IMG/VR virus record: IMGVR_UViG_2690316269_000016
Location: 1 to 18,733 of that record
DNA: 18,733 nt
Direction: 5' to 3' (one strand)
From: a virus
Lineage: Duplodnaviria; Heunggongvirae; Uroviricota; Caudoviricetes
Below are positions 15,001-18,733 of this stretch, piece by piece. Every line of letters begins with the position of its first letter. Positions within the stretch are counted from its first letter, which is position 1. Position numbers: made by a program.

Positions 15001-18000
15001 ATGAGGCTGACTATCGGAAGTTACAGGCACTGTTTTCCCGTATAGCGGCAGAGAAGTTTCAGGAACAACAACTGGAACAACCACACCACCAGCTGGTGGC
15101 ATCTTATGATTCACTGAATCGCAAATATTCTGAATTGCTGGATGAGTTTAAATCTCTCCGGCGCTATTTCTCCGTATCAGTCTCCGTGCCTTATACCGAT
15201 GTCTGGACGCATAAGCCCGTTCAGTTCTACCCGGGTAAACATCCGTGCGAGAAACCGACGGATATGCTCCGGCAAATAATCAATGCCAGTAGTCGACCTG
15301 GTGATCTGGTTGCTGATTTCTTTATGGGATCCGGTTCCACAATAAAAGCAGCAATGGCGCTGGGGCGTCGGGCGTTAGGTGTTGAACTTGAGTCAGAGCG
15401 GTTTAATCAGACGGTGAAAGAGGTAAGTGAACTGGTGGGGAAATAATTCTGGTGGCCACGTTGCGTGGCCTTTTTATTTCCAACACAGCACCCGCAAATA
15501 TCGCGAGGTGAGAGATGACGAAATGCCTCATAACCCAAATACCTGGCCGGACTGGCTGGAGTTGTTTCAGAGCTGGTGGCGTGGAGACACACCGCTGGGT
15601 GCAGTGATTATGTCGATCGTTATGGCTGGTTTGCGCATCGCCTATTTTGGCGGTGGTGGTGGCTGGAAGCGAAAAACGCTCGAGATTTTGCTCTGTGGCG
15701 CTCTGACGCTGACCTTTGCATCCGCTCTTGAATATGTCGGATGGCCTAAATCGCTTTCTGTTGCCATTGGTGGTGGCGTGGGGCTGATCGGTGTCGATGC
15801 TATTCGTGGGGCTGCAATGCGAGTAATCGGTAACAAATTTGGTAGCTCGAAGGAGTAATTTATGCAGGCACTAAATTCCCAGCGTAAAGCTTTCCTGGAT
15901 ATGGTGGCATGGTCAGAAGGAACGGATAACGGGCGACAACCGACACGTAACCACGGTTATGATGTTATTGTTGGTGGCGAACTGTTCACTGATTACTCCG
16001 ATCACCCTCGCAAACTTGTCACGCTAAACCCAAAACTCAAATCAACAGCCGCCGGACGTTACCAGCTTCTTTCCCGTTGGTGGGATGCCTATCGTAAGCA
16101 GCTTGGCCTGAAAGACTTCTCTCCGAAAAGCCAGGACGCTGTGGCATTGCAGCAGATTAAGGAGCGTGGCGCTTTACCGATGATTGATCGCGGTGATATC
16201 CGTCAGGCTATCGATCGTTGCAGCAATATCTGGGCGTCGTTACCTGGTGCAGGTTATGGTCAGTATGAACATAAAATCAGTGATCTGATTTCCCGGTTTA
16301 AAGAGGCTGGTGGGGTGGTAAATGAAGTTGAGCTATAAGCTGGTTATCGCTGCATTCTTCTTTACTGTCATCGGTTCTTTCATCTGGTCTGCCAACCACT
16401 ACTACAGCAAATATCAGCACGAAAAGAAACGTGCTGATGAGGCTGTACAAAATGCCAAATCGGCAACTGTCATTACCAATAACGTCCTGCAATCACTGCA
16501 AATCGTCAATACAGTTCTGGAGGCTAACCAGCATGCAAAACAGCAGATCACACTGGAGTCACAGAGAACCCAGGAAGATATCAAAGTGGCTGTTGCGGAT
16601 GATGATTGTGCTTCACGTCCTGTGCCTGCTGCCGCTGCTGACCGGTTGCGGAAGTACGCGAACAGTTTACGTACCGATTCCGGCGGTACCGTTGCCAGCA
16701 AGCCTGACTACTGAAACTCCCCAGCCAGTCATTCCCGAGCCGCTGACCTATGGGGCCAGTCTGGATCTGAATGTGAGCCTGCTTTCGGCGTTGGGACAAT
16801 GCAATATTGACAAAGCGGGGATTCGAAGTATCGAGATGCGCCGTAACGCTTTGCTGGCAGCAGGCAAATAGTCCGGACAAAGATCAGGAATATATTTATG
16901 CCCCCTCGAACTCCAAAAGCCTGCCGCGTTCGCGGCTGCCGTAATACCACGACAGACCCGTCAGGCTACTGCGAAAGCCACAAAAGCGAAGGCTGGAAGC
17001 AATACAAGTCAGGACAATCCCGTCATCAGCGCGGTTATGGTTCTAAGTGGGATGTTATCCGTGTGCGTGTGCTGCAACGTGACAAAGGCCTGTGTCAGTT
17101 ATGTCTGCGTGCCGGTGTGGCGCGTGAAGCGAAAACCGTTGACCACATCATCCCTAAAGCACATGGCGGCACTGATGCCGACAGTAATCTGCAGAGTCTG
17201 TGCTGGCCGTGTCATAAGGCGAAGACGGCCCGTGAACGGCTTAAGTGATAATAACTCTCAACTGTCTGAGGGGAGGGGCGGGTCAAATCTCTGTGACCTG
17301 ACGTCTTCCGGACTGCCCGCCCCATCGTTTTTTTATACCCGCGAAAAATGAAATTTAACCAGGAGTGCCGCATATGGCTGGAACGGCGGGGCGTTCCGGG
17401 CGTCGCCCCAAGCCAACGGCGCGCAAGGCGCTGGCCGGAAACCCCGGCAAGCGAGCCCTGAACAAAGATGAACCTGTTTTTACGCCCATCAAAGGCGTTG
17501 AGCCACCGGAGTGGTTCGCAGAAGAAAATCTCCCTCTCGCCACGATCATGTGGCAACTGACAACCAAAGAACTCTGCGGTCAGGGCCTGCTGTGCGTGAC
17601 TGACCTGGCGGTACTTGAGCGGTGGTGCGTGGCCTATGAGTTCTGGCGACGTGCCGTGAAAAATATTGCCAGACAGGGCAACACCATCACCGGTGCAATG
17701 GGTGGCATGGTCAAAAATCCGGAGCTGACCGCCAAGAAAGAACAGGAGTCCGAGATGAGCAGCACGGGGGCAATGCTCGGACTCGACCCCAGCAGCCGCC
17801 AGCGTCTGATTGGCCTGGCGGGGCAGAAGAAAATCTCCCTCTCGCCACGATCATGTGGCAACTGACAACCAAAGAACTCTGCGGTCAGGGCCTGCTGTGC
17901 GTGACTGACCTCGCGGTGCTTGAGCGGTGGTGCGTAGCCTATGAGTTCTGGCGACGTGCCGTGAAAAATATTGCCAGCCAGGGCAACACCATCACCGGTG

Positions 18001-18733
18001 CAATGGGCGGTATGGTCAAAAATCCGGAGCTGACCGCCAAGAAAGAACAGGAGTCCGAGATGAGCAGCACGGGGGCAATGCTCGGACTCGACCCCAGCAG
18101 CCGCCAGCGTCTGATTGGCCTGGCGGGGCAGAAGAAAGCCACTAACCCGTTTCTGAAAATTATCGAATCATGAGCCGGAAATCTTACCCCAACGTAAATG
18201 CAGCCAATCAGTATGCCCGTGATGTCGTGCGCGGAAAGATTGTGGCCTGCCAGTTTGTGATTCAGGCCTGCCAGCGCCATCTTGATGACCTGATGGCGGA
18301 AAAAAGTAAGTCGTTTCGTTACCGCTTCGACAAGGACCAGGCTGAACGGGCCGCGAAATTTATTCAGCTGTTGCCGCACACCAAGGGTGAGTGGGCATTC
18401 AAACGGATGCCCATCACGCTGGAGCCGTGGCAGCTCTTTGTGATCTGCTGCGCGTTTGGCTGGGTCAATAAAGGCTCCCGGCTGCGCCGCTTCCGGGAGG
18501 TGTATACCGAAATCCCCCGTAAGAACGGCAAATCGGCAATCTCTGCCGGTGTTGCCCTGTATTGTTTTGCCTGTGATAACGAGTTCGGCGCGGAAGTGTA
18601 TTCCGGTGCCACGACGGAGAAACAGGCATGGGAAGTCTTTCGTCCGGCACGACTGATGTGTAAACGCACACCCATGCTGACGGAAGCGTTCGGGATTGAG
18701 GTTAACGCCTCAAACATGAACCGTCCGGAGGAT

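What the first reader, a model, noticed from the sequence alone, without database searches (positions are those of the whole stretch)
17518..18137. 305-bp tandem duplication disrupting the small terminase subunit
Two adjacent 305-bp copies (6 mismatches by my count) lie within the P27-family terS. Because 305 is not a multiple of 3, the first reading frame enters copy 2 out of frame and ends after 10 aberrant residues (...GLAGQKK-ISLSPRSCGN), while the native C-terminus (...[11 protein letters not shown]) appears only on a 106-aa internal-start fragment whose stop is coupled to terL. Both copies and the flank begin with GCAGAAGAAA, suggesting microhomology-mediated duplication. The 2% divergence between copies argues against a trivial assembly artefact. 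The prophage may be packaging-defective, or it may use a variant TerS.
Basis: seen in the sequence. Interest (0 to 1): 0.5.

Follow-up and report, generated by a model that had tools for sequence, protein, structure and literature searches.

The report
Likely misassembled duplicate in phage terminase gene
The 305-base tandem repeat that splits this prophage's small terminase gene is really in the deposited sequence, but its two copies are two different natural versions of the gene sitting 600 bases from the end of a draft contig. It is therefore most likely a short-read assembly error rather than a biological duplication.

Summary
Positions 17518-18137 are two head-to-tail 305-nt copies with 6 mismatches, each bounded by GCAGAAGAAA. 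They split a P27-family terS into a 163-aa ORF and a 106-aa ORF.

The interpretation mostly does not hold. All 6 mismatches fall on codon position 3 and on sites that vary among natural alleles. Copy 2 plus everything up to the contig end is 100% identical to ETEC H10407. Copy 1 (17528-17822) is 100% identical to a different allele found in 17 complete genomes. The copies therefore did not diverge after a duplication: they are two alleles.

The window is the end of a 69.7-kb contig of the draft assembly GCA_001285565.1. That contig stops one base before a common polymorphic terL site, as expected if a second related prophage is present in the reads.

The junction is absent from 5,426 complete E. 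coli genomes, about 1,100 of which carry this terS as a single copy. The aberrant protein occurs on this one contig only. The 10-nt junction overlap equals GapFiller's default closure threshold, but which assembler was used is unverified.

Best explanation: a false "heterotype" duplication, confidence about 0.75. Rival: a real, private, inactivating duplication arising between alleles, about 0.2. Interest is low.

The parts
16898..17248 (+). HNH endonuclease gene upstream of the terminase genes, part of the HNH-TerS-TerL packaging module
   Evidence: PF01844 HNH, 58.9 bits. The same gene order is seen in every related locus. Over 15900-17255 the window is 100% identical to the D53-1/L056-type prophage arm and differs from H10407 at 103 sites.
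17256..17606 (+). cos region, terS 5' part and start of copy 1, identical to the ETEC H10407 allele
   Evidence: 0 differences from NC_017633 over this stretch, including the rarer variants 17290T, 17496C, 17520A and 17527A. The SfV and SfIV genome records start at window 17307, which places the cos end there.
17374..17865 (+). ORF1, 163 aa: TerS residues 1-153 followed by 10 out-of-frame residues (ISLSPRSCGN)
   Evidence: TIGR01558 74.2 bits. The exact protein (CTY82372.1 / WP_053901570.1) is on record for one contig only.
17518..17822 (+). Copy 1 of the 305-nt unit
   Evidence: Positions 17528-17822 are 100% identical to the single-copy terS of 17 complete genomes (SM107 type). The whole copy, including A at 17527, is not found in any complete genome (best 99.7%).
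17607..17706 (+). 100-nt patch holding all six sites that distinguish copy 1 (G,A,G,A,T,C) from copy 2 (C,G,A,C,C,T)
   Evidence: All six are at codon position 3 of the native frame, and five are synonymous. All six are polymorphic among natural alleles, and each haplotype exists as a block.
17823..18127 (+). Copy 2 of the 305-nt unit
   Evidence: 100% identical to the single-copy terS of ETEC H10407 and at least 11 other complete genomes. Together with the right flank it gives 911 nt with 0 differences from H10407, up to the window end.
17823..17832 (+). Junction: 10-nt GCAGAAGAAA shared by the end flank of copy 1 and the start of copy 2 (also at 17518-17527 and 18128-18137)
   Evidence: It is the only direct repeat of 9 nt or more in the single-copy gene. 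The perfect 10-mer at the 5' site exists only in the H10407-type allele, which about 110 of 5,426 genomes carry.
17853..18173 (+). ORF2, 106 aa: an internal-ATG fragment carrying the native TerS C-terminus, with its stop overlapping the terL start
   Evidence: The same 106-aa product is called elsewhere only where a single-copy terS has an N-terminal nonsense or frameshift mutation.
18170..18733 (+). 5' part of terL, cut by the contig end (contig ends at window-equivalent position 18735)
   Evidence: PF03354, 52.3 bits. Contig CYFH01000022.1 ends 2 nt after the window. The next base, 18736, is T in H10407 and C in SM107 and most other alleles.

Best explanation
The tandem duplication is most likely an assembly artefact, a false 'heterotype' duplication. 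The sequenced E. coli (or its read set) probably holds two related SfV/HK97-like prophages. Their terS-terL regions are nearly identical but differ at six synonymous-type sites within a 100-nt patch. Instead of keeping the two versions on separate contigs or collapsing them, the short-read assembly placed them one after the other. The false join was made at the only 10-nt sequence that occurs twice in the gene (GCAGAAGAAA). The contig then ran along the H10407-type copy until the next base at which the two prophages differ, and stopped there.

Shown directly: the two copies are two natural alleles; the structure lies at a draft-contig end that stops just before a polymorphic site; the junction is unique to this one contig.

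Inferred: a second prophage is present in this genome, and the join was made by a scaffolding or gap-closing step. For example, GapFiller closes a gap as soon as the two extensions overlap by 10 nt or more.

If this is right, the real genome carries ordinary intact 164-aa terS genes and nothing is disrupted.
For: (1) All 6 differences are at codon position 3. Under random post-duplication mutation the probability is (1/3)^6 = 0.0014. All 6 fall on sites, and carry bases, that segregate among natural alleles; the chance of this for random mutations is roughly 7e-10, given 27 polymorphic sites in 305 nt.

(2) Copy 2 plus the flank is 100% H10407-type. Copy 1 at 17528-17822 is 100% identical to a different allele present in 17 complete genomes.

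(3) The window is the last 18.7 kb of a 69,683-bp contig of the draft GCA_001285565.1, and the duplication ends 598 nt before the contig end.

(4) The contig stops at 18735, exactly one base before site 18736 (T in H10407, C in SM107 and most alleles). This follows 86 nt that are identical in both allele types. The chance of that position is about 2-4%, and it is what a second co-resident allele would produce.

(5) Co-residence is common: 1,272 places in 1,127 genomes, up to 4 per genome. One genome (CP182383.1) carries two such modules with different terS alleles.

(6) The junction is absent from 5,426 complete E. coli genomes (with a positive control) and from 185,579 species-representative genomes. 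Every related phage and genome inspected has a single copy. The 163-aa product is on record for this one contig only.

(7) GapFiller declares a gap closed when the two extensions overlap by at least 10 nt (default n = 10) (PMC3446322). The widely used Velvet+SSPACE+GapFiller pipeline is described by its authors as greedy and liable to false joins (PMC5320598). Adjacent false duplications of two alleles are a documented class of error (PMC9516828).
Against: No reads could be examined, so there is no direct evidence that the junction lacks read support. The assembler used for GCA_001285565.1 could not be identified. There are no Ns in the window.

A 10-nt microhomology at the junction is equally what a genuine slippage or illegitimate-recombination event would leave.

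The copy-1 allele as written (A at 17527 followed 80 nt later by the SM107-type patch) is not seen in any complete genome (best 99.7%). It would have to be a natural mosaic or itself a chimera.

I could not reconstruct step by step how a specific program would arrive at exactly this join. A de Bruijn assembler with k near 87-89 and 100-nt reads could in principle assemble a real duplication of this kind correctly.
Confidence: 0.75

Rival explanations
1. The duplication is real but private to this isolate, and it simply inactivates terS in a resident prophage (ordinary prophage decay). It would have arisen in one of two ways. Either slippage occurred between the two GCAGAAGAAA repeats of an H10407-type terS, followed by gene conversion of a patch of about 100 nt in copy 1 from a second prophage. 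Or a single homology-facilitated illegitimate recombination joined an SM107-type allele to an H10407-type allele at the microhomology. ORF1 would lack the last 11 residues of TerS, ORF2 would lack the first 58, and the prophage would be packaging-defective.
For: Head-to-tail copies are bounded by the only pre-existing 10-nt direct repeat in the gene. The perfect 10-mer exists precisely in the H10407-type allele that flanks the structure. The deposited sequence has no Ns. Natural terS alleles are highly mosaic, so recombination among these prophages is frequent. Real terS pseudogenes exist in other lineages, for example W47*.
Against: This needs two rare events, or one very rare one. They would have to fall within a lineage so recent that no other assembly shares the protein, yet the copies already differ at six sites, all third-position and all matching a standing allele. 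It also still requires the second prophage that by itself suffices for the artefact explanation. The location next to a contig end that stops just before a polymorphic site would be a coincidence under this model.
Confidence: 0.21
2. The duplication is real and the phage remains functional with a two-piece TerS. ORF1 would supply the N-terminal DNA-recognition part and the core. ORF2 would supply the core and the C-terminal tail, made by re-initiation at the ATG that overlaps the ORF1 stop. The two would co-assemble into a mixed ring that complements both defects. Alternatively, a frameshift at the junction would give a TerS with a duplicated core.
For: Only structural possibility. The ORF2 ATG (17853) lies 13 nt upstream of the ORF1 stop (17865), and its own stop keeps the native ATGA coupling to terL. 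Both ORFs score above the family cut-off.
Against: There is no Shine-Dalgarno sequence before 17853 and no slippery heptamer at the junction (read from the sequence). No related functional phage (SfII, SfIV, SfV, SfI, SKA5 and others) has this arrangement, nor do any of about 1,100 E. coli genomes. The structure is seen in one draft contig only.
Confidence: 0.02

Closest known systems
False heterotype duplication in genome assemblies (two alleles of one locus assembled next to each other; Ko et al. 2022, PMC9516828)
   Same: There are two adjacent copies, each carrying allele-specific variants. They lie next to a gap or contig boundary and produce a false gene disruption or gain (for the concept; for this case).
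   Different: The concept was described for heterozygous diploid genomes. Here the two 'alleles' would be paralogous copies in two prophages of a haploid bacterium. The diagnostic read-depth and read-pair criteria could not be applied.
False joins by greedy scaffolding and gap closing (SSPACE/GapFiller; PMC3446322, PMC5320598)
   Same: GapFiller closes a gap once the two extensions share at least 10 nt, and the junction here is exactly a 10-nt overlap, the only one available in the gene. The pipeline authors warn of false joins.
   Different: It is not known that this assembly was made with these programs. The exact sequence of steps could not be reconstructed.
Microhomology-mediated tandem duplication (replication slippage or illegitimate recombination between short direct repeats; established knowledge)
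   Same: The copies are head-to-tail and bounded by a short direct repeat that pre-exists in the parental gene. The unit length is not a multiple of 3, so the gene is frameshifted.
   Different: Such copies are identical at birth. Here they differ by a block of six standing third-position polymorphisms, and each copy matches a different extant allele.
P27-family small terminase in SfV/SfII/SfIV/SfI-type (HK97-like cos) packaging modules with an adjacent HNH endonuclease
   Same: The collapsed gene is 97-98% identical in DNA to terS of Shigella phages SfII, SfIV, SfV and SfI and of Escherichia phage SKA5. The order HNH-terS-terL-portal is the same. It matches TIGR01558 and PF05119.
   Different: All of those have a single intact terS of 161-167 aa. 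Only this contig has the 305-nt repeat.
Naturally decayed terS in other E. coli prophages (W47* nonsense allele)
   Same: The terS reading frame is interrupted, and a 106-aa C-terminal ORF is called from the same internal ATG.
   Different: Those are single-copy genes with a point mutation (TGG>TGA). They appear in many independent assemblies, including Logan assemblies of raw runs, so they are clearly real.

Membership tests
P27-family phage small terminase (TIGR01558 / PF05119 Terminase_4) | HMM score above the curated cut-off | tested here: met
   Collapsed 164-aa protein: TIGR01558 75.5 bits (cut-off 45.6) and PF05119 75.6 bits (cut-off 24.7). ORF1 and ORF2 each also pass.
P27-family phage small terminase (TIGR01558 / PF05119 Terminase_4) | Gene lies immediately upstream of terL and is coupled to it | tested here: met
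   There is an ATGA overlap at 18170-18173, and the downstream ORF matches PF03354 TerL_ATPase.
P27-family phage small terminase (TIGR01558 / PF05119 Terminase_4) | One uninterrupted ORF of about 161-167 aa | tested here: not met
   As deposited, the gene is split into 163-aa and 106-aa ORFs. Removing either repeat copy restores an intact ORF.
False heterotype duplication (assembly artefact) | Each copy carries variants specific to a different pre-existing allele | tested here: met
   Copy 2 is 100% H10407 type. Copy 1 at 17528-17822 is 100% SM107 type, found in 17 genomes. All six sites are natural polymorphisms.
False heterotype duplication (assembly artefact) | Lies next to a gap, contig end or repeat boundary of a draft assembly | tested here: met
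   It ends 598 nt from the end of contig CYFH01000022.1 of GCA_001285565.1. The contig ends one base before polymorphic site 18736.
False heterotype duplication (assembly artefact) | No reads or concordant pairs across the junction, with depth per copy half that of the flanks | not testable with these tools
Logan unitigs would break at the internal repeats whether or not the duplication is real, so the absence of ORF1 from Logan is uninformative.
False heterotype duplication (assembly artefact) | Absent from independent assemblies | tested here: met
   There is no junction in 5,426 complete E. coli genomes (control) or in the GTDB species representatives. ORF1 is on one contig only. An independent assembly of the same isolate was not available.
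Genuine microhomology-mediated tandem duplication | Head-to-tail copies bounded by a short direct repeat present in the parental single-copy gene | tested here: met
   GCAGAAGAAA lies at 17518 and at 17823 (collapsed coordinates). It is the only repeat of 9 nt or more in the gene.
Genuine microhomology-mediated tandem duplication | Copies identical at origin, with later differences random in codon position and unrelated to standing alleles | tested here: not met
   6 of 6 differences are at codon position 3, and 6 of 6 equal the states of a co-occurring natural haplotype.
Genuine microhomology-mediated tandem duplication | Junction verified by reads, PCR or long reads | not testable with these tools
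   This needs the raw data or the strain.

The most novel reading that the evidence does not exclude
The duplication is real and the prophage still packages DNA, using a two-piece small terminase. ORF1 (DNA-binding N-terminus plus core, no C-terminal tail) and ORF2 (core plus TerL-coupled C-terminal tail) would co-assemble into one mixed ring. That would be a natural example of intragenic complementation in a terminase.
Probability: 0.02. Interest if true: 0.5.

Novelty: not a real feature. Interest (0 to 1): 0.08.

Why it matters
It matters mainly as a caution. RefSeq has given the aberrant product its own accession (WP_053901570.1), and the split gene could be read as a defective prophage or as a variant terminase. 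The analysis offers a cheap, read-free test for such cases. Check whether the differences between the copies are standing third-position polymorphisms that match two extant alleles, and whether the contig stops at the next polymorphic site. If the duplication were real, it would be an ordinary private inactivating mutation in a prophage gene.

Tried and rejected
(1) Other carriers of the junction. I searched with a 32-nt exact junction pattern in genome contigs (0 hits). A looser 19-nt pattern in genome, viral and metagenome contigs gave 19, 1 and 13 hits. All were in unrelated taxa and matched nothing beyond the pattern itself, so they are chance hits.

(2) The 100-nt junction query in E. coli genomes was uninformative, because the tool joins the two half-matches of single-copy genes. 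I replaced it with a 40-nt query in which each half is shorter than 28 nt (no match), plus a positive control of the same length (111 records).

(3) I followed the 106-aa ORF to about 40 other contig sets, hoping to find the same duplication. All were single-copy genes with a W47* nonsense mutation or with frameshifts.

(4) I tried to identify the project and assembler of GCA_001285565.1/CYFH01 in the literature and in the supplement of the Sanger pipeline paper. Nothing was found (one search was a malformed query).

(5) I looked for a solved structure of a relative, to judge what the truncations would remove. There was no PDB hit by sequence.

(6) I checked whether H10407's second terS-like locus carries the copy-1 patch. 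H10407 is not among the 48 records with at least 99% identity to copy 1, so that strain does not supply the model pair.

(7) I considered a programmed frameshift at the junction. I rejected it because reading the sequence shows no slippery heptamer and no Shine-Dalgarno sequence before the internal ATG.

(8) I tried to derive the assembler's k from the geometry. The contig end equals 18649+86, and 17912-86 = 17826 lies inside the junction 10-mer, so both fit k = 87. This is suggestive only, and I do not rely on it.
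Full report
**What is in the sequence**

Tandem Repeats Finder reports one long array, 17518-18137, with period 305, 2.0 copies, 98% matches and no indels. The repeat finder agrees. A base-by-base comparison gives exactly six mismatches, at copy-1 positions 17607, 17613, 17631, 17673, 17703 and 17706. The repeat does not extend leftwards and extends 10 nt rightwards. GCAGAAGAAA therefore starts copy 1 (17518), copy 2 (17823) and the right flank (18128).

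- An ORF from the ATG at 17374 runs into copy 2 out of frame. The ATG is preceded by AGGAG; a GTG lies at 17365. The ORF stops at 17865 after ISLSPRSCGN.
- A 106-aa ORF (17853-18173) carries the native C-terminus. Its stop overlaps the terL ATG.
- Removing either copy restores an intact 164-aa protein. That protein matches TIGR01558 (P27-family small terminase, 75.5 bits, cut-off 45.6) and PF05119.

The neighbours are an HNH endonuclease upstream and the TerL ATPase domain downstream. This is the usual packaging module of SfII/SfIV/SfV/SfI-type phages, whose terS-terL DNA is 97-98% identical to the window and is single copy.

**Where the window comes from**

The exact 163-aa product is on record for a single contig: CYFH01000022.1 (69,683 bp) of the draft E. 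coli assembly GCA_001285565.1 (protein CTY82372.1 / WP_053901570.1). The window is the last 18.7 kb of that contig. The contig ends two bases after the window, at window-equivalent position 18735, inside terL. The duplication therefore ends 598 nt from a draft-contig end. There are no Ns in the window.

**Is the arrangement seen anywhere else?**

About 1,127 of 5,426 complete E. coli genomes carry this terS. The best matches all span 696 bp for the 1,001-nt query, which means a single copy.

I then used a 40-nt junction query built so that neither half can seed a match on its own. It finds nothing. A control of the same length from the native 5' boundary finds 111 records, so the negative result is not a masking artefact.

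A 32-nt exact junction pattern is absent from one genome of each of 185,579 species. Looser 19-nt hits in genome, viral and metagenome collections are chance matches in unrelated taxa.

The 106-aa ORF does occur in about 40 other contig sets. In those, terS is single copy and is interrupted by a W47* nonsense mutation or by frameshifts.

**The two copies are two natural alleles**

All six differences lie at codon position 3 of the native frame, and five are synonymous. Under random mutation of a dead gene the probability is (1/3)^6 = 0.0014.

I compared the window with 26 single-copy loci (tables).
- All six sites are standing polymorphisms.
- Copy 1 carries the block G,A,G,A,T,C, found together in SM107, MB06101, VG888-46E9 and D53-1.
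- Copy 2 carries C,G,A,C,C,T, found in ETEC H10407.
- Copy 2 plus the entire right flank up to the window end (911 nt) has no difference from H10407, nor does 17256-17606.
- Copy 2 is 100% identical to at least 12 complete genomes.
- Copy 1 from 17528 to 17822 is 100% identical to 17 others.
- With about 27 polymorphic sites in the 305-nt unit, six random mutations would hit standing sites with the right base at a probability near 7e-10.

The divergence is therefore not drift after a duplication. Two different alleles have been placed in series. One equivalent description is an H10407-type gene with a contiguous 305-nt piece of an SM107-type allele inserted after the 5' GCAGAAGAAA, the piece running from just after that allele's 5' repeat to the end of its 3' repeat.

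**Evidence for a second allele in the same read set**

The contig ends ...GGATGG at 18735. The next base, 18736, is T in H10407 but C in SM107 and most other alleles. The preceding 86 nt (18650-18735) are identical in both types. The two types differ at only about 2.3% of positions, so an end exactly there has a chance of roughly 2-4%. It is what a graph branch, or a base-by-base extension that halts at an ambiguous base, would produce if a second related terL were present.

Co-residence is common. There are 1,272 places in 1,127 genomes, up to four per genome. One complete genome (CP182383.1) holds two such modules, with the same HNH protein and different terS alleles.

**How the false join could be made (inference)**

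GCAGAAGAAA is the only direct repeat of 9 nt or more in the single-copy gene. Any overlap-based false join inside this gene would therefore have to use it.

GapFiller extends both gap edges one base at a time. It declares the gap closed as soon as the extensions overlap by at least 10 nt (default n = 10) and the insert is within 50 nt of the estimate (PMC3446322). The Velvet+SSPACE+GapFiller pipeline produced about 30% of GenBank bacterial assemblies by early 2016. Its authors describe these steps as greedy and able to make false joins (PMC5320598).

If the two versions of the patch were separate short contigs, each linked by read pairs to the same neighbours, a scaffolder could place them in series. 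The gap closer could then join them at this 10-mer.

The geometry is compatible with k = 87. The contig end equals 18649+86, and 17912-86 = 17826 falls inside the junction 10-mer. I treat this as suggestive only.

I could not establish which assembler was used. Adjacent false duplication of two alleles, often at wrongly filled gaps, is a documented error class (PMC9516828).

**The rival: a real event**

A genuine microhomology-mediated duplication would leave the same boundaries. The perfect 10-mer at the 5' site exists only in the H10407-type allele that flanks the structure. A k of about 87-89 with 100-nt reads could assemble such a structure correctly.

A real origin, however, needs one of two routes: slippage followed by gene conversion of a roughly 100-nt patch from a second prophage, or one homology-facilitated illegitimate recombination between two alleles. 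Either would have to occur in a lineage so young that no other deposited assembly shares the product. It also still requires the second prophage, which alone suffices for the artefact. I put this at about 0.2.

If real, the result would be an ordinary inactivated prophage gene, like the W47* alleles seen elsewhere. A functional two-piece TerS is not excluded but has no support. There is no Shine-Dalgarno sequence before the internal ATG, no slippery site at the junction, and no functional phage with this layout.

**Verdict**

Its central biological claim is probably wrong, and the argument that 2% divergence speaks against an artefact is reversed by the allele analysis.

The best explanation is a false heterotype duplication in a draft assembly (confidence about 0.75). 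Novelty class: not a real feature. Interest is low. The decisive test is to map the original reads, or run a PCR, across 17400-18200.

Noticed in passing
L002 2827-3321, L007 1684-2178, L008 502-996 (equivalent to window 17513): Other E. coli assemblies, including independent Logan assemblies of raw runs, carry a single-copy terS with a W47* nonsense mutation (TGG>TGA). This gives a 46-aa ORF plus the same 106-aa ORF. It is a genuine, recurrent or clonally spread terS pseudogene.
   Followed up: partly
window 17275-17323: An 8-bp inverted repeat, GGGGCGGG (17275) and CCCGCCCC (17316), brackets the position where the SfV and SfIV genome records begin (window 17307; SfI begins at about 17324). 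It probably marks the cos cleavage region, about 70 nt upstream of terS.
   Followed up: no
window 17255-17361: There is a mosaic breakpoint. Left of 17255 the window is 100% identical to the D53-1/L056-type lysis-HNH arm and differs from H10407 at 103 sites in 15900-17255. From 17256 on it is 100% H10407 type. This is either a natural module exchange at the cos/terS boundary or a further sign that the contig switches between two prophages.
   Followed up: partly
window 17527 (and 17520): The 5' copy of the 10-mer is perfect only in the H10407-type allele (AAT, Asn52), which about 110 of 5,426 genomes carry. Most alleles have G at 17527 (GAT, Asp52), often with T at 17520, which reduces the direct repeat to 9 nt or less.
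   Followed up: partly
L015, L016, L017, L052-L054, L060 versus L012, L013, L055-L059: Natural TerS comes in two C-terminal forms. In the 164-aa form the stop overlaps the terL ATG (ATGA). In the 161-aa form there is a 13-nt gap before terL. Polymorphism at 18129 accompanies the difference.
   Followed up: no
window 8809-8943: A cluster of short imperfect tandem repeats (periods 21, 24 and 12 nt; 2.5-2.7 copies) lies in the early region of the prophage. They are in-frame periods, so they probably encode a repetitive peptide segment.
   Followed up: no
L004, L005, L006 (GCA_901669795.1, GCA_052953355.1, GCA_948824835.1): In these assemblies terS, terL and the portal gene are all split into several ORFs by small indels. 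This pattern is typical of uncorrected long-read assemblies rather than of biological decay.
   Followed up: no
L059 and L060 (CP182383.1, 3759020-3765370 and 4444923-4451273): One complete E. coli genome carries two prophages with an identical HNH protein and lysis cassette but different terS alleles (164 aa and 161 aa) and different terL/portal variants. This is a natural example of the co-residence that confuses short-read assemblers.
   Followed up: partly
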